64,000 nucleotides of DNA. Origin: Eledone cirrhosa (lineage: Eukaryota). A program made the position numbers and the translations under genes. Each line of letters opens with the position of its first letter. Positions within the stretch are counted from its first letter, which is position 1. The notes below the pieces were generated by a model that made no database searches, had not been told where the DNA came from, and worked only from the letters and a program-made list of their open reading frames with translations. Where the stretch lies: assembly GCA_964016885.1 (NCBI GenBank), contig OZ024745.1, positions 98,332,001 through 98,396,000 on the forward strand. Direction: 5' to 3'. Shown one piece after another: positions 16,381 through 62,809 of the stretch.

Positions 16381-16435
16381 AGTCTTCTTCCTCCAAATTC
16401 TTCTTCTGAATGCTTGTTTGTTTGACTACTGTGTA

Positions 16436-19400
16436 CATATATTAACCAAGTGTAAAGGTGGTGTTACATCTATTAACCAAGTGTAAAGGTGGTGTTACAT
16501 CTATTAACCAAGTATAAAGGTGGTGTTACATCTATTAACCAAGTGTAAAGGTGGTGTTACATCTATTAACCAAGTATAAAGGTGGTGTTACATCTATTAA
16601 CCAAGTGTAAAGGTGGTGTTACATATATTAACCAAGTGTAAAGGTGGTGTTACATCTATTAACCAAGTATAAAGGTGGTGTTACATCTATTAACCAAGTG
16701 TAAAGGTGGTGTTACATCTATTAACCAAGTGTAAATGTAGTGTTACATATATTAACCAAGTGTAAAGGTGGTGTTACATCTATTAACCAAGTATAAAGGT
16801 GGTGTTACATCTATTAACCAAGTGTAAAGGTGGTGTTACATATATTAACCAAGTGTAAAGGTGGTGTTACATCTATTAACCAAGTGTAAAGGTGGTGTTA
16901 CATCTATTAACCAAGTGTAAAGGTGGTGTTACATATATTAACCAAGTGTAAAGGTGGTGTTACATCTATTAACCAAGTGTAAAGGTGGTGTTACATCTAT
17001 TAACCAAGTGAAAAGGTGGTGTTACATCTATTAACCAAGTGTAAAGGTGGTGTTACATCTATTAACCAAGTATAAAGGTGGTGTTACATCTATTAACCAA
17101 GTGTAAAGGTGGTGTTACATCTATTAACCAATTGTAAAGGTGGTGTTACATATATTAACCAATTGTAAAGGTGGTGTTACATATATTAACCAAGTGTAAA
17201 GGTGGTGTTACATCTATTAACCAAGTATAAAGGTGGTGTTACATATATTAATCAAGTGTAAAGGTGGTGTTACATCAAATACAAGTATAAAGGTGGTGTT
17301 ACATATATTAACCAAGTGTAAAGGTGGTGTTACATATATTAACCAAGTATAAAGGTGGTGTTACATCTATTAACCAAGTGTAAAGGTGGTGTTACATATA
17401 TTAACCAAGTGTAAAGGTGGTGTTACATATATTAACCAAGTGTAAAGGTGGTGTTACATATATTAACCAAGTGTAAAGGTCGTGTTACATATATTAACCA
17501 AGTGTAAAGGTGGTGTTACATCTATTAACCAAGTGTAAAGGTGGTGTTACATCTATTAACCAAGTGGAAAGGTGGTGTTACATCTATTAACCAAGTATAA
17601 AGGTGGTGTTACATATATTAACCAAGTGTAAAGGTGGTGTTACATCAAATACAAGTATAAAGGTGGTGTTACATCTATTAACCAAGTGTAAAGGTGGTGT
17701 TACATCTATTAACCAAGTGTAAAGGTGGTGTTACATCAAATACAAGTATAAAGGTGGTGTTACATATATTAACTAAGTGTAAAGGTGGTGTTACATATAT
17801 TAACCAAGTGTAAAGGTGGTGTTACATCAAATACAAGTATAAAGGTGGTGTTACATATATTAACCAAGTGTAAAGGTGGTGTTACATATATTAACCAAGT
17901 GTAAAGGTGGTGTTACATCAAATACAAGTATAAAGGTGGTGTTACATATATTAACCAAGTATAAAGGTGGTGTTACGTCTATTAACCAAGTGTAAAGGTG
18001 ATGTTACATATATTAACCAAGTGTAAAGGTCGTGTTACATATATTAACCAAGTGTAAAGGTGGTGTTACATCTATTAACCAAGTGTAAAGGTGGTGTTAC
18101 ATATATTAACCAAGTGTAAAGGTGGTGTTACATCAAATACAAGTATAAAGGTGGTGTTACATATATTAACCAAGTGTAAAGGTCGTGTTACATATATTAA
18201 CCAAGTGTAAAGGTGGTGTTACATCTATTAATCAAGTGTAAAGGTGGTGTTACATCAAATACAAGTATAAAGGTGGTGTTACATCTATTAACCAAGTGTA
18301 AAGGTGGTGTTACATCTATTAACCAAGTGTAAAGGTGGTGTTACATCAAATACAAGTTTAAAGGTGGTGTTACATATATTAACCAAGTGTAAAGGTGGTG
18401 TTACATCAAATACAAGTATAAAGGTGGTGTTACATATATTAACCAAGTGTAAATGTGGTGTTACATCAAATACAAGTATAAAGGTGGTGTTACATATATT
18501 AACCAAGTGTAAAGGTGGTGTTACATATATTAACCAAGTGTAAAGGTGGTGTTACATCAAATACAAGTATAAAGGTGGTGTTACATATATTAACCAAGTA
18601 TAAATGTGGTGTTACATCTATTAACCAAGTGTAAAGGTGATGTTACATATATTAACCAAGTGTAAAGGTCGTGTTACATATATTAACCAAGTGTAAAGGT
18701 GGTGTTACATCTATTAACCAAGTGTAAAGGTGATGTTACATATATTAACCAAGTGTAAAGGTCGTGTTACATATATTAACCAAGTGTAAAGGTGGTGTTA
18801 CATATATTAACCAAGTGTAAAGGTGGTGTTACATCAAATACAAGTATAAAGGTGATGTTACATATATTAACCAAGTATAAAGGTGGTGTTACATCTATTA
18901 ACCAAGTGTAAAGGTGATGTTACATATATTAACCAAGTGTAAAGGTCGTGTTACATATATTAACCAAGTGTAAAGGTGGTGTTACATATATTAACCAAGT
19001 GTAAAGGTGGTGTTACATCAAATACAAGTATAAAGGTGGTGTTACATATATTAACCAAGTGTAAAGGTCGTGTTACATATATTAACCAAGTGTAAAGGTG
19101 GTGTTACATCTATTAACCAAGCGTAAAGGTGGTGTTACATCTATTAACCAAGTGTAAAGGTGGTGTTACATATATTAACCAAGTGTAAAGGTGGTGTTAC
19201 ATCTATTAACCAAGTATAAAGGTGGTGTTACATATATTAACCATGTGTAAAGGTGGTGTTACATCAAATACAAGTATAAAGGTGGTGTTACATATATTAA
19301 CCAAGTGTAAAGGTGGTGTTACATATATTAACCAAGTATAAAGGTGGTGTTACATCTATTAACCAAGTGTAAAGGTGGTGTTACATATATTAACCAAGTG

Positions 19401-22400
19401 TAAAGGTGGTGTTACATATATTAACCAAGTGTAAAGGTGGTGTTACATATATTAACCAAGTGTAAAGGTCGTGTTACATATATTAACCAAGTGTAAAGGT
19501 GGTGTTACATCTATTAACCAAGTGTAAAGGTGGTGTTACATCTATTAACCAAGTGGAAAGGTGGTGTTACATCTATTAACCAAGTATAAAGGTGGTGTTA
19601 CATATATTAACCAAGTGTAAAGGTGGTGTTACATCAAATACAAGTATAAAGGTTGTGTTACATCTATTAACCAAGTGTAAAGGTGGTGTTACATCTATTA
19701 ACCAAGTGTAAAGGTGGTGTTACATCAAATACAAGTATAAAGGTGGTGTTACATATATTAACTAAGTGTAAAGGTGGTGTTACATATATTAACCAAGTGT
19801 AAAGGTGGTGTTACATCAAATACAAGTATAAAGGTGGTGTTACATATATTAACCAAGTGTAAAGGTGGTGTTACATATATTAACCAAGTGTAAAGGTGGT
19901 GTTACATCAAATACAAGTATAAAGGTGGTGTTACATATATTAACCAAGTATAAAGGTGGTGTTACATCTATTAACCAAGTGTAAAGGTGATGTTACATAT
20001 ATTAACCAAGTGTAAAGGTCGTGTTACATATATTAACCAAGTGTAAAGGTGGTGTTACATCTATTAACCAAGTGTAAAGGGGGTGTTACATATATTAACC
20101 AAGTGTAAAGGTGGTGTTACATCAAATACAAGTATAAAGGTGGTGTTACATATATTAACCAAGTGTAAAGGTCGTGTTACATATATTAACCAAGTGTAAA
20201 GGTGGTGTTACATCTATTAACCAAGTGTAAAGGTGGTGTTACATCAAATACAAGTATAAAGGTGGTGTTACATCTATTAACCAAGTGTAAAGGTGGTGTT
20301 ACATCTATTAACCAAGTGTAAAGGTGGTGTTACATCAAATACAAGTTTAAAGGTGGTGTTACATATATTAACCAAGTGTAAAGGTGGTGTTACATCAAAT
20401 ACAAGTATAAAGGTGGTGTTACATATATTAACCAAGTGTAAAGGTGGTGTTACATCAAATACAAGTATAAAGGTGGTGTTACATATATTAACCAAGTGTA
20501 AAGGTGGTGTTACATATATTAACCAAGTGTAAAGGTGGTGTTACATCAAATACAAGTATAAAGGTGGTGTTACATATATTAACCAAGTATAAAGGTGGTG
20601 TTACATCTATTAACCAAGTGTAAAGGTGATGTTACATATATTAACCAAGTGTAAAGGTCGTGTTACATATATTAACCAAGTGTAAAGGTGGTGTTACATC
20701 TATTAACCAAGTGTAAAGGTGATGTTACATATATTAACCAAGTGTAAAGGTCGTGTTACATATATTAACCAAGTGTAAAGGTGGTGTTACATATATTAAC
20801 CAAGTGTAAAGGTGGTGTTACATCAAATACAAGTATAAAGGTGATGTTACATATATTAACCAAGTATAAAGGTGGTGTTACATCTATTAACCAAGTGTAA
20901 AGGTGATGTTACATATATTAACCAAGTGTAAAGGTCGTGTTACATATATTAACCAAGTGTAAAGGTGGTGTTACATATATTAACCAAGTGTAAAGGCGGT
21001 GTTACATATATTAACCAAGTGTAAAGGTGGTGTTACATCAAATACAAGTATAAAGGTGGTGTTACATATATTAACCAAGTGTAAAGGTCGTGTTACATAT
21101 ATTAACCAAGTGTAAAGGTGGTGTTACATCTATTAACCAAGTGTAAAGGTGGTGTTACATCAAATACAAGTATAAAGGTGGTGTTACATCTATTAACCAA
21201 GTGTAAAGGTGGTGTTACATCTATTAACCAAGTGTAAAGGTGGTGTTACATCAAATACAAGTTTAAAGGTGGTGTTACATATATTAACCAAGTGTAAAGG
21301 TGGTGTTACATCAAATACAAGTATAAAGGTGGTGTTACATATATTAACCAAGTGTAAAGGTGGTGTTACATCAAATACAAGTATAAAGGTGGTGTTACAT
21401 ATATTAACCAAGTGTAAAGGTGGTGTTACATATATTAACCAAGTGTAAAGGTGGTGTTACATCAAATACAAGTATAAAGGTGGTGTTACATATATTAACC
21501 AAGTATAAAGGTGGTGTTACATCTATTAACCAAGTGTAAAGGTGATGTTACATATATTAACCAAGTGTAAAGGTCGTGTTACATATATTAACCAAGTGTA
21601 AAGGTGGTGTTACATCTATTAACCAAGTGTAAAGGTGATGTTACATATATTAACCAAGTGTAAAGGTCGTGTTACATATATTAACCAAGTGTAAAGGTGG
21701 TGTTACATATATTAACCAAGTGTAAAGGTGGTGTTACATCAAATACAAGTATAAAGGTGATGTTACATATATTAACCAAGTATAAAGGTGGTGTTACATC
21801 TATTAACCAAGTGTAAAGGTGATGTTACATATATTAACCAAGTGTAAAGGTCGTGTTACATATATTAACCAAGTGTAAAGGTGGTGTTACATATATTAAC
21901 CAAGTGTAAAGGCGGTGTTACATATATTAACCAAGTGTAAAGGTGGTGTTACATCAAATACAAGTATAAAGGTGGTGTTACATATATTAACCAAGTGTAA
22001 AGGTCGTGTTACATATATTAACCAAGTGTAAAGGTGGTGTTACATCTATTAACCAAGTGTAAAGGTGGTGTTACATCTATTAACCAAGTGTAACGGTGGT
22101 GTTACATATTTTAACTAAGTGTAAAGGTGGTGTTACATCTATTAACCAAGTGTAAAGGTGGTGTTACATATATTAACCAAGTGTAAAGGTCGTGTTACAT
22201 ATATTAACCAAGTGTAAAGGTGGTGTTACATATATTAACCAAGTGTAAAGGTGGTGTTACATCAAATACAAGTATAAAGGTGGTGTTACATATATTAACC
22301 AAGTGTAAAGGTGGTGTTACATATATTAACCAAGTGTAAAGGTGGTGTTACATATATTAACCAAGTGTAAAGGTCGTGTTACATATATTAACCAAGTGTA

Positions 22401-22575
22401 AAGGTGGTGTTACATCTATTAACCAAGTGTAAAGGTGGTGTTACATATATTAACCAAGTGTAAAGGTGGTGTTACATATATTAACCAAATGTAAAGGTCG
22501 TGTTACATCAAATACAAGTGTAAAGGTGGTGTTACATATATTAACCAAGTGTAAAGGTGGTGTTACATCAAATAA
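16436..22575. repeat. 31/29-bp minisatellite array (ATTAACCAAGTGTAAAGGTGGTGTTACAT[C/A]T and CAAATACAAGTATAAAGGTGGTGTTACAT)
   Basis: Tandem units read directly; the same variant cassette recurs at 18288, 20277 and 21193. Confidence 0.97.
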
Positions 22576-26036: not shown

Positions 26037-27205
26037 TTTTAAATATTGATGGCAAAATGGCAGAGCTATTAGAGCTTCGATATTTGTTCCGGTTCTCTGC
26101 AGCGGGGTTCAACTCCCGTTAAGGTCAACTTTGTATTTCATCATTTCGGAGTCGATAAATATATCACCAAATAATTGGTGAATTGGCGAGTGTTTTTTGT
26201 TTTGTTCTTTTTTCTTTGGGGTTTTATTTTTTAAAGAGTCGGGCAGGGTGTTTTGCAGTATAAGCTTCAGTTCTGTGTGTTCTGTGTTCAAATTCTACCT
26301 CCTTCTACTATGAGATGCGGCCAACAGATAATAGTTCCCCGTCTGGTCAGATGATTGGTTCCATTCTTTTTCAAAAATATATTGCCAGACATAACAAGAG
26401 TTGGAATAACACTAAATATCTGTTCTCAATAAATTTTCAGACAATTTGTGGAGGGGGAGAGAGATGGAGGCGATGACAGTGGGAGTTGGGCTCTTCCACG
26501 TTCGGACCATATCCTTGTGGTTGTATTTAATGTAGTTGCTATTTGTAGTTATTTTCACAAACCCTGAAAATAAGCCGCATGTTGTGGCAAGACAATTTAT
26601 TTCACCTTGCCCAAGTCCTCTCAGCTGCCAAAAATGAGTTTTACCTATGATACAATGTGTCACATTGAATCTCCCTCAGAACTATGCTAATAACTCAGCC
26701 ACTTACACTTCAATTTCACAAGTAGTCAGTTCCATTATTCGAACGGTGGAGCACACGCAGTTGAAATCGACGGAAATCAAATATACACACTCCTGCATAT
26801 ACGCGAATCGTCTTCTGCACAACGAAAAAACAATAATAGCTGCCTAGGGTTTAAGATTGTATGGATTTCATCCCAAACATTTTCTAACCACTTCATATAG
26901 CCGATAGAAAAATGTTCACGTGATCGCTATTTTTTCCTACGCAGTAACGGAATAGATCCTTCTTTAAATCAAAAGAGCATGTGAGGTGAACATAACACTT
27001 ACGGCATCTTTGATTACTAACAGATTTGGTAATATTCTCTCTAACTGTTGATGCAGTTATCGCTGTCAACTAGGAACATCAAAGCGAGATTGCATGCGTT
27101 TTTTTTAATCTTCAAATCAATCTACACACTCATACCTTTCCATATGTGTGTGTGTATATTTACATATATATATACACACATACACACACACATATATATA
27201 CAGTA

Positions 27206-27264
<59 letters not shown>

Positions 27265-27377
27265 GTATATATATATGTATGTATATGTGTATATATATAT
27301 ATATATGTGTATATATGTATATGTGTATATATATATATATATGCATATATATATACAAATATATATATATGTGTGTG

Positions 27378-27411
<34 letters not shown>

Positions 27412-27416
27412 CACAC

Positions 27417-27447
<31 letters not shown>

Positions 27448-27562
27448 CAGATATATATACGTATATATATACATACATATATACATATATTACTATCCAG
27501 CCAATTTTCAACCGTCAAGGTTGTTTTCCATGGTTATGTCACTATTTATAAAACAAATTTTG

Positions 27563-27627
27563 TATTTTATCTGATGAAAGCGCACCAAGATTGGCTTGGT
27601 TGCCCTTGAAATATATATAATAAAATA
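27563..27627 (+). ncRNA. Type I hammerhead ribozyme, family C copy 1
   Basis: Stem I TATTTTAT/ATAAAATA; core CTGATGA; stem II AAG-C-GCACCAAG/CTTGGTTGC-C-CTT; GAAA; AT-palindromic stem III; AUA triplet. Confidence 0.8.
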
Positions 27628-28018
27628 ATTATGGTTTTATAAACATAGTTTCCATTTATTAATATATGTAAATTTTCTAGTATTCTACTCTAACCATAAA
27701 TTCCTCAATCTAAGATTGACCTGTAGTATCGAATTTCATACTATAAACCCCAATTGAATATATATCTGACCAGGAATGCTTTTTGCTTTTTGTGAAAATC
27801 AGTCATATGGAACTATTATCATCTTGCCTGACGGTTTGAACTTTACAACACCACCTGCCTCTTTGAGGTCAAATACCAACCCTACTAGCATCTACAAACT
27901 GACCGAAGAGAATTAAGATTATTCCTACTGACAACATTAAATTATTCCTAACAAACTCATATATCCCAAGGCTCTGATACACCATAAACACAGAGCTGGC
28001 ATATCTAAGAACTGACTA

Positions 28019-28074
28019 ACTGCCTGATGAGGTCATAGCCACTCAATGGCTATCATCGAAATATATTTAGCAGT
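28019..28074 (+). ncRNA. Type I hammerhead ribozyme (D)
   Basis: Stem I ACTGC/GCAGT; CTGATGA; stem II GGT-C-ATAGCCA/TGGCTAT-C-ATC; GAAA; short stem III (AATATATT palindrome); UUA triplet. Confidence 0.8.
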
Positions 28075-41675: not shown

Positions 41676-44600
41676 AGTTGAGCTACATTACGCGGTAAGA
41701 TTACATACATTAATTCTACATAAGTGTTTGAACTGTAAGTGGGTTGTAAAACTCCTATTTATATGAACGATACATACACTTATGATATATGAACGATACA
41801 TACACTTAAACATATAAATGCAAAGTTGTTATATTACATTTGTAAAGAAATATGCAAGTAACGTTTTCGATTCAGAAACAAAAACATAAGTGTTTGAACT
41901 GTGAATATGTTGTAGAACACCTATTTATATGAATGATACATAAACTTTAACATATAAATACAGCGTTGTCATATTATACTACATTCATAACGAAATATAC
42001 TAAGTAACGGTTCTTTTTGTTCTCAATTCAAACGATTCAAGAACAACGTTTAAAACACAGTTGTAGAATTAAAAACTAACTGAAAAGAAATATTACCCAA
42101 GCTGTGAATAACTTTAAATTAGATTCTGACAGAACTGTGTCGAAACTTTTAAAGAAGATCATCGACTATTTTGAAAAATAAATACAAAATATTAGTGAAT
42201 AGACGAACTCATCATGGCAAAACGTACAAGTCTCCTTCGACCAAATCGCAACTACAACCGTTGTATACAGTGGAGCTACGAGCTTAACAAAGAATTATAT
42301 GAAGCATACAAACAATCAGAACCCCAAAAGTTCGGTTTTATGCAAAGGCTAAAAACTTTATGGAACTCCAAACACCCAGAATTAGACTTTTCTCCAAAGC
42401 ATTTAAATGAACAGGCAAAACGTATCACTAGATGTAAATTGATACATCTAACGGAATTGAGTGATACTACAAATACAGCCCTTGTAGACAACCACCCCAC
42501 CTCCACTGACAGACAAAGAGAATGGCCAGCTAAATCTAACAGTGAACAGCTCACCAACAATTTTGCTGAAATCCATCCCACTTCCACTGAAGAACAGCGA
42601 GAATGGTCAGCTAACTCTAGTAGTAATTGTCACCACATCAACAACGAGGCTGAAATTCATGACTCTACTGTACAAACAGAACACCAAAAACTTGTGGATA
42701 CCTTACAAGTGATATGGGACGATATGTTTCAAGAGATACACAGCCTTAATGTGAGTGACAGACCATACAACACCAGAATCAGTTAAGAACCCACTAAATT
42801 GGAATTGGAAGCAGTGAACGAAATAGCTGACAATTATCTGAAGGCTATACGATCTAAAGGTGTAGAAACGACATTTGAAACGCTTAACCTTTTTGTTATA
42901 TGTTTCAGCTGTCACATTGCTATCATATAACAAACATCTAAAACCACGCAATCAAGATACAAACAAAAAGCCTGAACCAGCGTGGATGCGAAATTTAAAA
43001 AGCAAAATTTTGTCCCTGAGACGAAGTATCTCACACATCCTAGTCGTTATGAAATGCAACATAGAGAGCAACTTCACACGACACCAGGAAGACCTAAAAG
43101 AAAGGTTAGAGAGACGATTTTGAGATACAAAATTTAAAACTTTAAACTCCAAATTACACCAGTTGAAACAACAACTCACAGCTACAACAGAAAGACTAAA
43201 ATATAAGTCAACAGCACATAAACGACAAGTGCTAAATAGATTGTTTGCCAGAGATCCTAAATCAGTTTATCGCAGCTTCGGTGGCAAAAGCTCAATCTCT
43301 GTAAATGACATCCCTTCAAAAGAACAGGTTGAGAGCTACTGGAGATCTGTATGGGAAACGGATGACGGATTCAACAGACAAACTAATTGACTAAAAGAAC
43401 TGGAACAGGACTACTGCCAACATGTCCAGACAAAACAATATGACATAGATGGGTCAATACTGGAAACAGCTCTACAGAAAATGTCAAATAGGAAATCACC
43501 AGGCCCAGACCTCATTACAGGATACTGGTTGAAGAATTTCACTTTCTATCGGCAAGATCTCATACGGCTGTTTACAAAAACCATTAAAGGCACACAAGAA
43601 CTGCCCAGATGGTTATCAACTGCCACTACTCTCCTCATTCCCCAAAATAGCCAAACCACCCTTGCTAAAAATTACGGCCCTATAGCCTGCCAAAACATCA
43701 TGTATAAATTATATACTGGGTGCCTTAACCTGTTCTTACAGGATCACTGTGATACCAACAACATCATAACACCTGAGAAAGCTGGTGGAAAGAGGGAGGT
43801 GTGGGGTTGCATAGATCACCTACTAACTAATAAAATGTTTCAAGAAAAAACAACAAAGAATCGCAGAAACATGACTGTGGTGTGGCAGGACTATCAAAAA
43901 GCATTTGATAGTACCCATTGTACCTCATGGGTGGATTGTTAAGGCTTTACAGTTAGCCAAAGTTCCACAACCATTGGTAGCTGCTGTTGAACGCCTGACC
44001 AAGAACTGGTACACCAATTTGATCCTTAGAGGTGAGAAGGTGCAAGTTAAGACTGATAAGATACATTACCAGAAGGGCATCTTTCAGGGTGATAGCTTGT
44101 CAGTGCTACTCTTCGTTCTCTCACTAAATCCACTATCTTACCTACTCAGGAAACAAGGTTGACAAAGAAGTGGGTCCAGAAGTATCCCCCATCTTTTCTT
44201 TGTTGATGACCTGAAGTTGTATGGGCCAAATATCAATGACATCAAGAAACAATTGGACCTCATTACACAATTTTCAACAGACATCAAAATGAAATTTGGT
44301 GAGTCCAAGTGTGCATATTTGGCAGTAAAACGTGGAAGAGCTGTGCCCTCCTCTAGAAATCTAGAGATGAACGGCCTGACAATACAACCTCTACAGTCAG
44401 GTGACAACTACAGATATCTTGGACAGGATGAGAATGTCAGATATGATGGACCCAGAACTGAATACCTCAGAAGAGTAAAGAAAATATGGTCATCAGAACT
44501 GCCAGCGTACAACATATACATTGCCCACAATACTTATGCTGTGCCAATTCTAACGCCAACATTTGGCCTGCTTAACTGGTAATTGCAAGAACTAAGTGAG

Positions 44601-45790
44601 ATGGATGTTAGAACTCGCAAATTTCTCAGTGTTACTGGGAACTTTAACATCAATGGTGATGTGGATAGGCTATACTTCTCACGCAAGGAAGGTGGCCGGG
44701 GTCTAAAAATCCATATTAACATCATATGAGACCCGGATAGTAACACTGAAGCAACATCTTCAACAGAGGAAAAAGGTTCGCAACCATCTTGCCCAGGTTT
44801 ATGAGCATGAAAAAAAATATGATTAGAATAGCCACTGATCTGGACGAGAGATATGGAATAAAGCCTGATATAAATCTCTCACCCAGAAAAAATCGGAAGA
44901 TCCTATTCAATGTTCAAACAAGATGAAAAAATTGACCAATTTACAGAAAAAGTTGTGCATTGATACTTGAGACGTAAAACACAGACCATAGAGGGGATAA
45001 ACCACTCAAAAAGCCTGCATGGAGTTCCGACAAGTTTATGACATCACACCTTGAGGGATATCTCTATGCAATACAGGAACAAGAACTACCTATCAAATAT
45101 CTGCTGCACAAAAGGGGAGGGCTATCAGCTGACAATAAATGTAAGTTATGTAAAACAAAGATCGAGGATGTAAGCCACATTGTTGCCAACTGCGAAAGAA
45201 TGTCATCTCGCTACTACCTCTCCATGAGACACGATGGGATAGCTAGAACCATCTGGAACGCACTTCGGAAAACAAAATTAACAACAAACGAGGAAGAATA
45301 TATTGAGACAGATGGCACTAAGGAATACTGGTGGAACCTGAAAATAAAAACTGCCACCAAATTAAAGCACAACCGGCCTGATATTGTTGTTTGGGACCAC
45401 ACATTGAAAACGTGTTCTGTTGTGAAGATCAGCTGCCCACTTGATGTAAACGTTGTCAGAAAAATACAGGAGAAGGAGAACATCTACGGACCATTGATGA
45501 GGAGTTTACAAATCCAGTATCCAAGATACACCTTTAACTTCATACCCATCATTATTGGAGCTACGGGCTATATACCAACCCGCTTGGACCAAAGTATGAC
45601 TGAACTTGGATTTGCGGACAAAGAGCGCAGCTCCCTAATTCATAGTCTACAGATAGCTGCGATAGCTGGCACCTTCAAAATTTGCAAAACATTCTTGCGA
45701 TTCAAGGGATGACAATTTCTTTTCTTTTAAACCTTGCCAACAGGAAGGTGGCCGGTCAAAAAGATATACTCGAAATTAAGAGAAAGAGAT
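41676..45790 (+). mobile_element. R4/Dong-like element, family B (near full-length, decayed)
   Basis: KSPGPDLITGYW, NYGPIACQN, GIFQGDSLS, FVDDLKLY, CKLC..HIVANC, RHD, NRPDIVVWD motifs; starts after (CATA)n and ends before ACATATATACATACATA. Confidence 0.88.
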
Positions 45791-45810
45791 AACATATATA
45801 CATACATAGA

Positions 45811-48800
45811 CAGTCAACGCGATCAGTCGTATATTTTGGCGTGGGAGACTATTTATTAAATTTAAGATGAATACTATCTCCGACACAACTACAGTCAGGT
45901 TGAATAACTGGTTATTCTTCTAACTAGCCCTTCTGAAGACACCTTTTATTCGAATTCGTAGAAATATCCGACTAAATACATAATTCATTTTACAAGGATT
46001 TGCTACAAACAGCATGGCTGAACACAACATCAACAAAAAAATTAAGGAAGTACCGAAGACAAATAACAAGGAAGGTAATCAAACTTTATTCAGTTGTAGC
46101 TACAGAAGAAAACAAAATTATAAATCGCATTTCTCTTGGAGTTGCGAACTTAATAATGATTTATTTAATTGTTATAAAATGGCAAAAAAACAATCCCTCC
46201 ATTGGCTATATGAATAGAATGAAGCTACACTGGGACGAAATACAACCAGAGCTAAATCACTTCACAGCGAAACAATTACGCCAACAAGCGACGTTTGTTG
46301 AACGTAAAAATAAGATAAATATTATTAATTGTAAGTCGCCAACAACAAACATGTTATCAACAACACGTGTTACAGGTCGTCATGCTACTAGACTTCCTAG
46401 CAGCCAGGTCAAACAGCGTCTTGAAACAACGATGCCTGTAAGAAATTTGACACCACCTGTACCATCTAAGTCTACCTCGAATGCTGGGGAAACCCTATCG
46501 ATAATAATAATAATCGAAGAAATTTGACACCACGTGTACCATCCGTGTCTACCTCGACTATTGTGGAAAATACTATCGATAATGATAATCAAAAGTATAA
46601 ACAATTGAAAAATGAACGAAATCTTCCAGAGAGAAATTAACTCATGTATAAATATCTCTCTTGTTGAACGTGTTAAAACGACAATGTTGAACAAAAAACC
46701 AAATATTGAAATATTACGTGTTATTGACGAAATAGGGGATGAATATTTACGACGGATAAAAACACCAACATTTTGACAAATCAACGCCTGTTTATATGCC
46801 TTAGCAATGACAGTGAAGCATTTATCTTGGTGATAGTAGAGATATTAACAAGAACAAAACACCACCAAAAATACCATCATATATAACTAAAATAGAAAAA
46901 AAGTTTGCTGACCTACGAAAAAACATAGGACATGTGAAATGCTCCTTACATGCAAACAAACACACAACAACCTCACTCCTCACCAACAAAGAGTGAAAAA
47001 TAAAATAGAGACGATGTCTGGTTACAATAGAACCAGAACTCTCCAATATAAGCTGATCACCCTCAAACAAGAATTGGGAGCTGTTAGCGAAAAACGCCGA
47101 TACCTGAAGAAGGTAGATGAGAGAAAAGTGCTTAATAAAAGATTCAGACGAAACCAAACATCAGTGTATAGAGATATGAAGGGAAAAATAATAAGTGTCA
47201 CTGAGGCCCCATCCCAGAAAGACATAGATTCCTTTTGGAGAAAAATATGGGGTGAAAAGAAGAATTCCAACCAAGATGCAGTGTGGCTAAGAGAAATCCG
47301 AAAGAAATATTGTTCCTACACTACAACAAAAACATACGAAATAAGTGAGGGTACCCTTGAGACTGTGATAGGAAAACTCCAAGTTAAGAAAACACCAGGA
47401 AGAGACATGATTGTCGGCTACTGGTACAAAAAACTGATATTCTATCGGAGGTATCTTACTGACCTCTACCAACAAGTTCTTAAGGGAAATACACTTATAC
47501 CAGAATGGTTGACATTAGCACAAACGTAACTGGTCCCCAAGAACAAAGACACCCACTTGGCAAAACACTACCGACCCATTGCATGCCACAACCTGATGTA
47601 TAAGATGTATACAGCCTGCCAGCACCTGATGTATAAGATGTATACAACCTGCCTGAACCTATTCCTCCAAAATCACTGTGAAAATAATAGTATCATCACA
47701 GATGAACAAGCAGCTGGATAGAAAGGGATTTGGGGATGTGCTGAACAACTCCTAATCAACAAAACTGCGATGTCGGAGGTGCGACAACTTAGGAGGAATA
47801 TGACTACAGTCTGGCTGGACTACAGAAAAGCTTTTGATTCTGTTCCCCACTCTTGGATGATAGAGGCTCTCCAACTTGCTAAAGTCCCAGACATTATTGT
47901 CAGAGCCATAGAGAGGCTGTCTTCTTCTCAGGCTACTATCCTAAGGTTAAAGACAGAGAGGGAGGACTCTATTTTACTGATAAAATAAAATATTGCATGG
48001 GTATATTTCAGGGGGACTGTCTCTCTGTGATATTATTCATCTTGTCATTAAACCCCTTGTCCTTTCTGCTCAAGAAACGTGAGGGATACATCATTGGCAC
48101 ACAGGGGGACAGAAATACGAACCTAACCCATAATTTCTTTGTGGACGATCTGAAACTCTATGCCAAGAACATGGATGGGATGAAGAAATATCTTGACCTG
48201 GTCACAACGTTCTCAAAGGATATAGGAATGGAGTTTGGCCAAGATAAATGCTCATACATGACTGGAAAGCGGGGAAAAACAACAACCCAATCTAGCAACA
48301 TTCTCATCAATGGCCTAACTGTTTCACCGATATCTGATGAGGACTGCCACAGATACCTGGGGATAGATGAGAACATATCCTATAATGGTATATGTAATAA
48401 AGAACGCGTAACCAGGGAATACTACACCCGATTAAGAAAGATCTGGTCATCGGAACTCTCTGCGCAAAACAAAACAGTGGTTCACAATGTGTTTGCTGTG
48501 CCTGTCCTAACACCAACGTTTGGAATACTCAATTGGACGATAGACGAAATCCGAGCAGTTGATGTTGGAACTCGAAAAATACTGAACAACACCGGAAACT
48601 TCCACATCAACAGTGACATAGACCGCCTTTACTTGAAACGCAAGCAGGGAGGAAGAGGCCTAACATCAGTCCAGACAACATTTGAATGTCGCATCATATC
48701 TCTCCGACATCTACGAGCCTCGAAGCGTAGAAGCCCGTTTATCGAGCAAGTCTATCATGAGAGTTGGGAAGGAACTCCTCGAGAGATATTCCCTGTGTGA

Positions 48801-49297
48801 TAATCAAAATCTCACACCCAGGGATGTCGCTCAGCAGTATCGCAGTGAATCCATGGATGAAAAACTGCATGCCTATCAGCAAAAAATCATGCATGGATAT
48901 GTTGCCAGGAAGCTCCAGAGTGAGAGTAATATAGATAAGGAAAGTAGTCTATCTTGGACCAACAACCGCTATATTGGCTCCCACTTTGAAGGATACGCTT
49001 TTGCAATCCAGGAACAGGAGATTAGCACGAAATACCTGATTCACAAAAGAGATAGGGATGCAGGCAAAACACCTAGATGTGATAACATGTGCAGACTCTG
49101 CAGAACTAACATCGAGGATATCACCCATGTCATCAGCAGCTGTCCAAAGATGTCATCGCGGTACTATCTACTTGTGCAGCATGATGTAGTGGCCAAAACA
49201 CTGTACAATGCAATTCGTAAAAAAGTTAGCCCCGATAATAAACACATTAAAAGCTACAACAATGTGGAAGACATCCATGTACATAATATGAGAAGTA
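45811..49297 (+). mobile_element. R4/Dong-like family A copy 2 (3' end replaced)
   Basis: Same 5' start CAGTCAACGCGATCAGTC and collinear with 6502-10400. Confidence 0.88.
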
Positions 49298-49468
49298 CGG
49301 CCTGATATTGTTGTTTCGGACCACACATTGAAAACGTGCTCTGTTGTAGAGATCAGCTGTCCACTTGATGTCAACGTTGGAACAAAAATACAAGAGGAGG
49401 ACATCTATGGACCATTATTGAGGAGTTTGCAGATCCAGTATCCAAGATACACCTTCAGCTTCATACAC
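49298..49468 (+). mobile_element. Family B Dong endonuclease fragment fused to family A copy 2
   Basis: Matches 45374-45548 (CGGCCTGATATTGTTGTTT.GGACCACACATTGAAAACGTG...). Confidence 0.85.
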
Positions 49469-49969
49469 AATTGCACGGCTGTTGATTCTCCTGCAGTCAA
49501 CCAACCTTTCCTTCTGGAATTTGTATTTTTATTTTTGTTATGTGAGTTTGCATGGGCACATACATACTTATATTTGAACACGTATTATTTGAGAAAGAAT
49601 GAAATAAATTATTCCCATGTTACTAGAAAGATACGTTCAATAATTGAAAGAGCGAACGTTGGTAATTCCTATGTCCTTTGGCAGAACTTAATTACCGTGC
49701 TGCATTGGGAGTTTCATAATGTATTTAGTCCCACAGTTATCACTGGAGACTGGGTCCTCATATGAAGGTGTTGTATTATAAGTTTGATAATGTATTGAGT
49801 GATGGAGTTACCACTGAAGACTGTGTACTCATATGTAATGTATCTAAACAAAGTAAGCTTGGTGGATCCCCATCTAATGCTACATACAGTGTTGAACTCT
49901 AACACTGCAAGCTAACAGAGGATATGTTTGTTTTACTGTATAGTCACTACACACCGAAGCTTTATAATA

Positions 49970-56294: not shown

Positions 56295-56356
56295 TATTTT
56301 ATCTGATGAAAGCTTACCAATGTTTTTGGTACCCTTGAAATATATATAATAGAATA
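56295..56356 (+). ncRNA. Type I hammerhead ribozyme, family C copy 4
   Basis: TATTTTAT-CTGATGA-AAG-CT-TACCAA..TTGGTA-CC-CTT-GAAA-TATATATA-ATAGAATA. Confidence 0.78.
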
Positions 56357-57801: not shown

Positions 57802-57933
57802 AATTCCATATATGGTCAAAGTGATTGTCAAAAATCAGTAGTAATTCTGTGGTTGCAAATTAGTAGGGGAGATGGTGGCTAAACCTGCCAGTAGGAGAAA
57901 GAGGGGAGGGGGTGGAGTAGACCCAATCAAGCG

Positions 57934-59697
57934 TTGGTAGTGCCAGCTACAGCTGGGCATGAGGTCAAAGAAGATACAGGGGAGGGGGAGGGGGAGGAAG
58001 TCGGAACGGTAGGTAGAACAATGGGGGGTAGAAATAGGAAAAAAAAAAAAAAAAAAAATACTGAGAGTGAAGAAAGGCAAATAAGTGTAAAGAAAAGTAA
58101 AGTAAATTTTGACCGTAAACCCTCCATCAGGCTTATTAACCCAACGAAGTCCGACATAGGGAGAATCAGCAAAATAATCCTAGACCGCGTGATACCAAAA
58201 GTCAAGCAACACACCCGACTTAGCCTATGGATCAACACCCAGGAAGTAATCTCCTGGTTCAGCAATATGGAGGATAAACGAGAAACTAAATTCATACAGT
58301 TCGACATAGAGAGCTACTATGCTTCTATCACCTTACCGCTACTTACTGCCGCCTTGGACTTCGCCGAAACACTCGTGCCCATCACCGACCAGGAAAGAAA
58401 AATCATCCTCCACGCCAGGAAGACAGTCTTACTCTTTGACGACTCTAAATGGATAAAAAGAGCTCCCGACTCACCCTTCGACGTCAGCACGGGCGCCACG
58501 GATTCGGCGGAGGTCACTGATCTTATAGGATTATTCCTAATAGCCAAACTCACTGATATGTTTCCTGCATTCGGTGGTGGATTGTACCGTGATGATGGGC
58601 TCCTTACCCTTAAAGGGTACAACCCCAGTAGTACAGATCGGGTCCGGAAACAATTAATCAGATTCTTCCGCGACTGGGGATTTAAAATAACCCTACAAAC
58701 GTCCCTGACCCGAGTAAACTTCCTGGACGTAACCCTCGACCTCGAAAACGACCTGTACTACCCATACAGGAAACCTAATGACAATCTGCACTACATCCAC
58801 CGCCGATCAAACCATCCTAGGAACATCACAAACAACCTGGTCAAAAACATCTCCCTCCGCATATCCCGTTTGTCAGCTAATGAGCGGATATTCGATGAAC
58901 ATGCGCCTTATTACAACCAGGCCCTCAAGCGGAGTGATTTCCGGGAGGAAATATCCTACTGTCCAGCTCCCATTAGCGGAACCAGCAGGAGACACCGCCG
59001 CTCACGCAATGTAACATGGTTCAATCCTCCCCACAACGCAGAGGTGACTACTCCCATCGGGAAACTATTCTTTAGGCTCATTGAAAAACACTTCCCATTA
59101 CAACACCGCTACCACAACATAATTAACAAAAATACCATCAAACTCTCTTACAGCACTACACCAAACTTCGCACAAAACATCGTCTCCTCTAACAACAAAA
59201 AACTCAACCCCGATGGCAGAAATAACCTAATTAGCAGTGGAGAACCGACCAGGAGGTGTAACTGCCCGGATAGATCTATTTGCCCACTCGACAATAGATG
59301 CAGAGACCGTAATGTGATCTACCAGTGCAACGTGAGGACGGATACCTCCAACAAAGCCTATATAGGACTTACCGCATGTGACTTCAAGACCCGGCTATAC
59401 CAACATAGACATACCTTCCGAAACCCGGCCCGGCGTCACGCCACTACACTTTCGGGCCACATATGGGACCTCAAGGACAACAACATCACCTATGATCTCA
59501 CTTGGAGATTACTGTCCAGAGCCAATTCTTACACGGGAGGACGCCGTCCGTGCAATTTATGCTCGGAGGAAACTTTACAAATGCTGTTTTCGACGGACCA
59601 ACTCCTAAACAAGAAAGATGAACTGGTTACTGCATGTAAACATAGATTGCGTAGGACTTACCTCGCCCTCAAACCCCATAATGACCCGGGGGGGTAG
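57934..59697 (+). CDS. Penelope-like reverse transcriptase + GIY-YIG endonuclease (uninterrupted frame; first ~58 aa come from the inverted pLTR)
   Basis: RLINPTKSDIG, FIQFDIESYY, GLYRDDGL, VNFLDVTL, WFNPP, CNCPDRSICPL linker, NVIYQC..AYIGLTACDFKTRLYQH, CNLCSEE, NKKDEL. Confidence 0.9.
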   Translation: MVVPATAGHEVKEDTGEGEGEEVGTVGRTMGGRNRKKKKKKNTESEERQISVKKSKVNFDRKPSIRLINPTKSDIGRISKIILDRVIPKVKQHTRLSLWINTQEVISWFSNMEDKRETKFIQFDIESYYASITLPLLTAALDFAETLVPITDQERKIILHARKTVLLFDDSKWIKRAPDSPFDVSTGATDSAEVTDLIGLFLIAKLTDMFPAFGGGLYRDDGLLTLKGYNPSSTDRVRKQLIRFFRDWGFKITLQTSLTRVNFLDVTLDLENDLYYPYRKPNDNLHYIHRRSNHPRNITNNLVKNISLRISRLSANERIFDEHAPYYNQALKRSDFREEISYCPAPISGTSRRHRRSRNVTWFNPPHNAEVTTPIGKLFFRLIEKHFPLQHRYHNIINKNTIKLSYSTTPNFAQNIVSSNNKKLNPDGRNNLISSGEPTRRCNCPDRSICPLDNRCRDRNVIYQCNVRTDTSNKAYIGLTACDFKTRLYQHRHTFRNPARRHATTLSGHIWDLKDNNITYDLTWRLLSRANSYTGGRRPCNLCSEETLQMLFSTDQLLNKKDELVTACKHRLRRTYLALKPHNDPGG

Positions 59698-62417: not shown

Positions 62418-62583
62418 AGGGTCGGACGCCATGCTTTGACGCATAGAGTTACGGCCCTTGCCATTCTGAGTTCAAATCCCGCCGAGGTTAACTTTGCCTT
62501 TCATCCTTACGGGGTCGATAAAATAAAGTACCAGTAATACACTGGGTAATTTGCTGGCCTTGTGCCAAAAGTAGAAACAATTA
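62418..62583 (+). mobile_element. SINE family 1 inserted into a family-C HHR element
   Basis: SINE core; ATTATA on both sides; host sequence continues on both flanks. Confidence 0.8.
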
Positions 62584-62644
62584 TATTTTATCTGACGGAA
62601 GCGTACTTAAATATTAGTACCCTTGAAATACGTATAATGAAATA
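62584..62644 (+). ncRNA. Hammerhead family C copy 5 (core mutated: CTGACGG)
   Basis: TATTTTAT-CTGACGG-AAG-C-GTACT..AGTAC-C-CTT-GAAA-TACGTATA-ATGAAATA. Confidence 0.65.
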
Positions 62645-62698
62645 AATATGGTCTTATAAAGCTATTTTCCACTTATTAATATTATTAATATGTATATG

Positions 62699-62809
<111 letters not shown>

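What the first reader, a model, noticed from the sequence alone, without database searches (positions are those of the whole stretch)
27563..28074. Two different same-strand hammerheads 450 nt apart: retrozyme-like cassette
Seen: HHR C1 (predicted cut after 27619) and HHR D (cut after 28069) lie on the + strand within one (TA)n-bounded segment (27491-28113). They have unrelated stem I sequences but the same architecture: 3 bp, a C-C mismatch, an extended stem II and an AT-palindromic stem III. A third HHR on the opposite strand follows at 28390-28455. Known: tandem HHRs in retrozymes release unit-length RNAs that can circularise. Inference: read-through transcription could excise a 450-nt RNA. 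Alternatively, this is two nested pLTR remnants.
Basis: partly seen in the sequence, partly recalled or inferred. Interest (0 to 1): 0.75.

Follow-up and report, generated by a model that had tools for sequence, protein, structure and literature searches.

The report
Two jumping-gene tails meeting by chance
The two predicted self-cutting RNA motifs match the hammerhead pattern, but they are the tail ends of two different, very common Penelope-type jumping genes joined at only this one place in the genome, so the pair is likely an ordinary chance neighbour and not a circular-RNA-making element.

Summary
The three hammerhead (HHR) motifs lie at the stated places, with cuts predicted after 27619 and 28069, and their stems covary across families. 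The 450-nt spacer is not a unit. Bases 27491-27667 are the 3' end of one Penelope-like family (C; 8,354 exact motif copies). Bases 27663-28117 are the 5'-truncated 3' end of another (D; 3,310 copies). They overlap at TATAT. Longer copies of both lead to RT and GIY-YIG ORFs with Hydra-clade motifs, 39-46% identical to each other. The junction occurs once in 3.0 Gb. None of 92 positionally sampled D ribozymes has an intact C ribozyme upstream within 1 kb, and about 5 such pairs are expected genome-wide by chance. The two stems I are incompatible, so the pair cannot form the double hammerhead these motifs are thought to need, and a circle would hold no intact ribozyme. This D copy also has a private change in its helix III palindrome. 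No RNA run was available.

The parts
27155..27490 (.). Degenerate (TA)n microsatellite, left flank and likely target tract
   Evidence: period 2, 82% matches
27491..27667 (+). 3' end (pLTR region, short-type end, 5'-truncated) of Hydra-like PLE family C
   Evidence: 97-98% hits genome-wide; 97% to a long C copy that carries the EN ORF; 8,354 exact motif copies
27563..27627 (+). Type I hammerhead C1: stem I 27563-70/27620-27, core 27571-77, stem II 27578-607, helix III ATATATAT 27611-18, predicted cut after 27619
27663..27667 (+). C/D junction, a 5-nt TATAT overlap shared by both families; unique in the genome
27663..28117 (+). 5'-truncated 3' end (3' UTR/pLTR) of Hydra-like PLE family D
   Evidence: (3,310 exact motif copies)
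28019..28074 (+). Type I hammerhead D: stem I 28019-23/28070-74, core 28024-30, stem II 28031-57, helix III 28061-68 with a private A>T at 28067, predicted cut after 28069
28118..28262 (.). Perfect (TA)35 tract, then (AG)35 tract, between D and the inverted C copy
28263..28542 (-). Third, independent insertion: tailed 3' end of a diverged C-family copy (about 82% to C1) with its own HHR (28390-28455, predicted cut after 28398), tail-to-tail with D

Best explanation
The segment is the 3' ends of two different Penelope-like retrotransposon families (C and D, Hydra-type), each carrying its family's hammerhead motif, which likely landed one after the other in the same TA microsatellite and are joined at a TATAT overlap. 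Inferred mechanism: each family's RT/GIY-YIG protein primes reverse transcription at TA repeats, copies the RNA from its 3' end and usually stops early, joining the new 5' end at an internal ATAT to target TA. Repeated hits on one TA tract put unrelated tails side by side; the order here is not resolved. The pair is predicted to be inert as a cassette. These short-helix-III ribozymes are thought to need a partner with a matching stem I, C and D cannot supply that to each other, D's palindrome is mutated, and a longer read-through RNA is predicted to trap C1 in a duplex with the inverted C copy.
For: Shown: (a) A whole-segment search returns only the window itself across the junction; the other long hits start at query 158-208 (40 of 3,965 candidates scored). 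(b) The junction 33-mer with <=2 mismatches has 1 hit in 3.0 Gb. (c) 0 of 92 D anchors in 90 positionally taken loci have an intact same-strand C HHR upstream within 1 kb, and 0 of 32 C anchors have a D hit. 0 of 29 top D loci have one. 27 of 27 visible top C loci lack D; 2 rows were cut. (d) Longer copies of D and of C lead to RT and GIY-YIG ORFs, 39-46% identical with no nucleotide match, with Hydra motifs. (e) Both families sit in TA: 38 of 43 short C ends are followed by >=10 nt of TA, and 26 of 91 D copies start at one internal ATATG next to TA. (f) Other C/D contacts occur with other breakpoints and in other orientations: L005, L176, L116, L218, L229. (g) Background: 14 HHRs in 400 kb of evenly placed stretches, 0-1 in shuffles. 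3 of 92 D anchors have some other same-strand HHR-like motif within 1 kb, against 3.5% expected; 4.6 C-to-D pairs are expected genome-wide. (h) Stem I cross-pairing fails at the first or second pair. (i) 116 of 172 C1 bases pair with the inverted copy in the MFE of 27491-28542. Literature: single metazoan PLE min-HHRs showed no cleavage and dimers only low cleavage (PMC4209133).
Against: The junction has no TA spacer, whereas only 5 of 43 short C ends lack a >=10-nt TA run. The two copies have similar private divergence (D 7 of 437, C 2 of 170; Fisher p=1.0). Both facts also fit a single template-jump event. The sample bounds recurrence only to under 3.2% of D copies (about 106 loci), and it comes from one contig. 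The genome-wide test covers this exact junction only. The hypothetical circle folds somewhat better than shuffles (z -2.1), though it includes D's own hairpin. Cleavage and expression were not tested, and no read bridging the junction was seen (inconclusive).
Confidence: 0.76

Rival explanations
1. One insertion event: the D protein copied D RNA from its 3' end, jumped at TATAT onto the 3' end of a C RNA and finished there, giving a one-off cross-family chimera.
For: The junction is seamless at 5 nt of overlap, placed at C's natural short 3' end. The two halves have similar ages. Template-jump chimeras are known for LINEs (search listing only: PMC2104539, PMC4476161).
Against: The two other C-then-D contacts seen (L005, L176) have TA spacers. 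D's 5' ends commonly join at ATAT anyway, and C also inserts with little TA (5 of 43). The families' proteins are only 39-46% identical, and the one PLE studied in vitro likely binds a motif in its own RNA (the authors' hypothesis, PMC11167929 passages).
Confidence: 0.13
2. Whatever its origin, read-through transcription lets both ribozymes cut (as monomers, or paired in trans with abundant family transcripts), releasing a 450-nt RNA that RtcB could circularise as a dead-end by-product.
For: Both catalytic cores are intact. A host ligase, not the HHR, circularises retrozyme RNAs in vitro (PMC7229834 passages). Thousands of family copies could supply partners in trans.
Against: The active folds lie 3.8-4.0 kcal/mol above the MFE. 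D's helix III duplex is weakened (-1.0 homodimer and -1.6 with a normal partner, against -3.2 kcal/mol). The inverted C copy would mask C1. The ORFs examined in the window are transposon-like; no host gene was identified. PLE HHR cleavage was low in vitro, and no reads ended at the cut site in anole RNA-seq.
Confidence: 0.07
3. The 450-nt segment is a true amplifying retrozyme unit.
For: The size and low GC fall in the range of animal retrozymes (150-450 bp, PMC7229834); both HHRs are on one strand.
Against: It is single-copy, not a tandem of identical units, and the circle junction cannot rebuild stem I, so a multimer could not be cut to units.
Confidence: 0.01
4. The junction is an assembly error joining two repeats across collapsed TA.
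For: No contig or read bridging 27663 was listed in 8 runs.
Against: Those runs are RAD-seq reads or fragmented contigs, probably of other individuals, and the tool warns that holes prove nothing. Both halves carry only a few private changes, and similar C/D contacts exist elsewhere.
Confidence: 0.03

Closest known systems
Hydra-clade EN+ Penelope-like elements, including Hydra-1_Obim of Octopus bimaculoides (Craig et al. 2021, PMC8557442; section 11 and one supplement row read)
   Same: RT followed by a C-terminal GIY-YIG, CxCX5C linker, no CCHH, CxxC and CxH around the conserved E/N, DKT (family D), HHRs, (TA)n targets, 5' truncation, inverted 5' copies, optional tail.
   Different: Only non-coding 3' ends are present at this site. 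The C-family tail is about 95 nt rather than 30-40. No tree was built, and I did not compare C or D with the Hydra-1_Obim sequence.
Metazoan PLE hammerheads with a small palindromic helix III (Cervera and de la Pena 2014, PMC4209133; parts 1-2 of 4 read)
   Same: Type I, large helix II, palindromic helix III, mostly solitary or in inverted pairs 100-700 bp apart, predicted to act as dimers.
   Different: Here stem II has 3 bp, then a conserved C.C or C.U mismatch, across at least four families. No extra nucleotide between A9 and the base of stem II is needed. I did not find this detail in the texts searched, but supplements and Lunse et al. 2017 were not seen.
Animal non-LTR retrozymes (PMC7229834; bioRxiv 10.64898/2026.07.22.740005)
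   Same: Two same-strand type I HHRs a few hundred bases apart, AT-rich, derived from PLE pLTRs.
   Different: Retrozymes are tandem repeats of one unit with an HHR in each unit. This is one copy each of two unrelated families, single in the genome, and the released RNA could not re-form a ribozyme.

Membership tests
Type I PLE hammerhead | CUGANGA / GAAA / NUH core | tested here: met
   all three motifs
Type I PLE hammerhead | Stems I and II paired, with compensatory changes across families | tested here: met
   97% of cells paired, 10 of 13 pairs with two-sided change, 0/500 shuffles as high; the 13 rows were picked by a pairing scan and are related, so this leans towards the structure
Type I PLE hammerhead | Palindromic short helix III (C1) | tested here: met
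   ATATATAT at 27611-18
Type I PLE hammerhead | Palindromic short helix III (this D copy) | tested here: not met
   ATATATTT; private change at 28067
Type I PLE hammerhead | Match to an Rfam hammerhead model | tested here: not met
Type I PLE hammerhead | Self-cleavage | not testable with these tools
   needs in vitro transcription
Non-LTR retrozyme | Tandem repeats of one unit, each with an HHR | tested here: not met
   two unrelated families, one copy each
Non-LTR retrozyme | The unit between cuts recurs in the genome | tested here: not met
   1 hit; 0 of 92
Non-LTR retrozyme | Neighbouring HHRs can form a double hammerhead, and the circle re-forms the HHR | tested here: not met
   D5':C3' fails at the first pair, C5':D3' at the second
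Non-LTR retrozyme | Highly self-paired circular form | tested here: inconclusive
   -72.3 kcal/mol, 51% paired, z -2.1 against 60 shuffles
Non-LTR retrozyme | Expressed as unit-length linear and circular RNA | not testable with these tools
   no RNA run was available to lay
Hydra-clade PLE (parent families C and D) | RT followed by C-terminal GIY-YIG endonuclease | tested here: met
   Atlas leads (RVT_1 in 13-17% of members of three clusters; GIY-YIG in 31% of one cluster); Pfam gave no hit on C or D ORFs
Hydra-clade PLE (parent families C and D) | CxCX5C linker; CCHH absent; CxxC and CxH around E and N | tested here: met
   against the definition; seen in D (L061, L062, L064-L069) and C (L070-L072)
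Hydra-clade PLE (parent families C and D) | DKT motif | tested here: inconclusive
   found in one D copy (L063); the C copies fetched do not reach that far
Hydra-clade PLE (parent families C and D) | N-terminal RWK motif | tested here: inconclusive
   found only in a separate PLE piece in L070, not assignable to C or D
Hydra-clade PLE (parent families C and D) | Insertion into (TA)n | tested here: met
Hydra-clade PLE (parent families C and D) | Phylogenetic placement with named Hydra elements | not tested
   no reference sequences were fetched

The most novel reading that the evidence does not exclude
The spacer-less TATAT joint records a Penelope reverse transcriptase jumping between the RNAs of two families only about 40% alike in protein. 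Such cross-family joins (an estimated thousands of heterologous HHR pairs in this genome) would release chimeric HHR-bounded RNAs, a raw supply from which new retrozymes could arise.
Probability: 0.04. Interest if true: 0.55.

Novelty: new member of a known kind. Interest (0 to 1): 0.13.

Why it matters
As a system it matters little: it is one of many chance HHR neighbours in a genome with an estimated 10^5 PLE hammerheads (14 in 400 kb). It is a useful caution. Two same-strand hammerheads make a retrozyme candidate only if their stems I match and the unit recurs. Minor additions are two abundant Hydra-type families and a C.Y mismatch in stem II shared across families and missed by Rfam, which is a testable structural feature.

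Tried and rejected
Rfam on the window and on the segment: no hammerhead model matched; the shown hits are microsatellite look-alikes of miRNA and snoRNA models. Pfam on C and D ORF pieces: nothing. The weak RVT_1 hit (E 0.007) is on L070:1312-1950, which one search suggests belongs to another PLE piece, so I do not count it for C. PDB sequence search with D RT: only chance G-protein hits. Sequencing runs: no RNA holder listed, so there is no evidence on expression either way. DNA contigs and RAD-seq reads show no 28069-27620 joint and no listed piece bridging the C/D junction; this is inconclusive. A genome-wide count of C-then-D pairs at any spacing could not be made, so recurrence with other breakpoints is bounded only by sampling. 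The D sample is 92 anchors from the first 100 listed matches on contig C1 (the last 6 and one locus already held were not fetched; some inverted pairs share a locus). My first label, 'Neptune-like', was dropped after checking the motif definitions. C inserted inside an intact D was rejected because no upstream D sequence lies in the window. The minus-strand HHR as the inverted 5' duplicate of C1 was rejected because it is tail-to-tail and only about 82% identical, whereas such duplicates are head-to-head and 92-99% identical to C1. Order of insertion by age: not resolved. The bacterial promoter scan is irrelevant to this host. Lunse et al. 2017 was not held and is known only through the review PMC6765202. 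Earlier findings near this place or like this sequence: none.

Full report
Observation. Two more lie at 35254(-) and 56303(+). That is 5 in the window against a mean of 0.04 in 100 shuffles. An alignment of 13 such motifs from several families has an invariant core and an invariant C at the fourth position of stem II. It is 97% paired, with two-sided changes in 10 of 13 pairs (the rows were chosen by a pairing scan). Rfam does not recognise them. One detail differs from the finding: D's helix III is ATATATTT here. The family form is ATATATAT in 27 of 27 passing top hits and 60 of 92 sampled anchors, 21 of which did not pass the scan. Reads of two DNA runs show A at 28067 almost without exception.

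Context. The window is G000:C5:98332001-98396000 of a 3.0-Gb, microsatellite-rich genome. The ORFs examined in the window are transposon-like, and a Helitron-type PIF1 helicase ORF lies to the right.

The segment is two things. Searching the genome with 27491-28117 returns only the window across the whole length; all other long hits cover the right part. The left part is a separate family. Exact 22- and 20-nt HHR motifs occur 8,354 (C) and 3,310 (D) times. In other copies, C runs on to TA directly or through a tail (18 and 11 of 29). D extends upstream through its 3' UTR into a GIY-YIG ORF. Extended loci show RT and endonuclease ORFs upstream of both. They are 39-46% identical in protein, with no nucleotide match. 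The endonucleases have a CxCX5C linker, one cysteine between the GIY and YIG words, and CxxC...E...N...CxH; one D copy has DKT. These are the Hydra-clade marks in Craig et al. (PMC8557442, section 11), whose supplement lists a TA-targeting Hydra element from an octopus. Long C and D copies map to 27492-27667 and from 27663, overlapping at TATAT, and no upstream D sequence is present in the window.

Does the pair recur? The junction 33-mer with up to 2 mismatches has one hit, the window. Among 92 D anchors taken by position on one contig, none has an intact same-strand C HHR upstream within 1 kb, and none of 32 C anchors has a D hit; the 95% upper bound is 3.2%. C and D do meet elsewhere, with other breakpoints and orientations. 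L005 and L176 have a C end without a whole HHR, a TA spacer and a truncated D; L116, L218 and L229 have C downstream. Forty evenly placed 10-kb stretches hold 14 HHRs (shuffles 0-1), about 10^5 per genome. At that density 3.5% of HHRs should have a same-strand neighbour within 1 kb; 3 of 92 D anchors have a heterologous one. About 4.6 C-then-D pairs are expected from the exact motifs alone. Other heterologous same-strand pairs were seen at 290, 305, 433 and 950 nt.

How it arose (inferred). Both families end in TA: 38 of 43 short C ends are followed by at least 10 nt of TA, and 26 of 91 D copies begin at one internal ATATG beside TA, the same kind of break as here. Successive insertions into one TA tract explain the locus. 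Either D entered the TA behind C and joined at C's last TATAT, or C primed at the TATAT in front of a truncated D. Private changes (D 7 of 437, C 2 of 170) do not give the order. The missing TA spacer and the similar ages keep a single template-jump event open (0.13). The third HHR belongs to a separate, diverged C copy lying tail-to-tail.

Could it work as a cassette (predicted)? Short palindromic helix III HHRs cleave poorly alone and better as dimers (PMC4209133; review PMC6765202 passages; PMC7229834 passages). In a double hammerhead the 5' strand of stem I of one motif pairs with the 3' strand of the other (established model, from my knowledge of Forster et al. 1988). For C and D these pairings fail at the first or second base pair. 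The same failure means a 28069|27620 circle would hold no intact ribozyme, although a host ligase could still close such an RNA. D's mutated palindrome weakens its dimer helix. The active folds lie about 4 kcal/mol above the minimum, and a transcript reaching 28542 is predicted to bury 116 of 172 C1 bases in a duplex with the inverted copy. For the one PLE studied biochemically, HHR cleavage was not needed and no RNA-seq reads ended at the cut (PMC11167929 passages). Expression could not be tested.

Comparison and verdict. Animal retrozymes are tandem repeats of one HHR-bearing unit (PMC7229834 part 2 of 6; bioRxiv 10.64898/2026.07.22.740005 parts 1 and 3 of 5). This locus fails that test and the recurrence test. 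It works like, and by the motif tests is, a pair of Hydra-type PLE 3' remnants; tree placement was not tested. I did not search the literature for these two families by name; an octopus repeat annotation lists Penelope-like elements without the words Hydra or hammerhead in its main text (PMC13282606 passages). Supplements of the bioRxiv preprint and of PMC4209133 were not seen and may show the stem II mismatch. Ordinary finding; interest 0.13.

Noticed in passing
L234:5575-6388 (G000:C15, about 27746600-27747400); also L024: A true homologous array: four near-identical (99%) 166-167-nt units, each with an intact HHR of a third family (helix III ATGCGCAT), a partial fifth unit, an inverted copy at the 5' end and TA at the 3' end. 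It is a far better retrozyme candidate than the finding.
   Followed up: partly
L146 and L148 (G000:C1:1603426-1606447; C1:3545949-3548970): Same-strand C-C HHR pairs with cuts 364 and 305 nt apart and compatible stems I, 2 of 32 C anchors. L148 also has an inverted partial copy between them.
   Followed up: partly
all fetched loci: Stem II has 3 bp and then a C.C (or C.U) mismatch in at least four HHR families with different stem sequences; a possible tertiary contact, not matched by Rfam.
   Followed up: partly
window 57895-59694 (+): An uninterrupted 600-codon frame of a third Hydra-type PLE (RT, CxCX5C, GIY-YIG; about 36-46% to C and D), with no Pfam hit and no HHR found by my scan downstream to 64000.
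   Followed up: partly
window 28575-30900 (-): Helitron-like piece with a PIF1 helicase ORF (29093-30091, E 1e-53) and an STPR-repeat ORF. L005's C fragment is also preceded by what looks like a Helitron-type end (recalled resemblance).
   Followed up: no
D family, window equivalent near 27959: 26 of 91 sampled D copies begin at the same internal ATATG about 65 nt upstream of the HHR: a truncation hotspot, or a short non-autonomous subfamily.
   Followed up: no
window 570-4902 and 16434-22568: Long minisatellites: 43-nt unit x 102 and 31-nt unit x 200.
   Followed up: no
window 6844-10395 and 42199-49762: Two related LINE-like RT copies sharing 77-nt and 33-nt repeats.
   Followed up: no
window 35254-35206 (-), 56303-56348 (+), 62581-62773 (+): Further C-family ends in the window, two with passing HHRs.
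   Followed up: no
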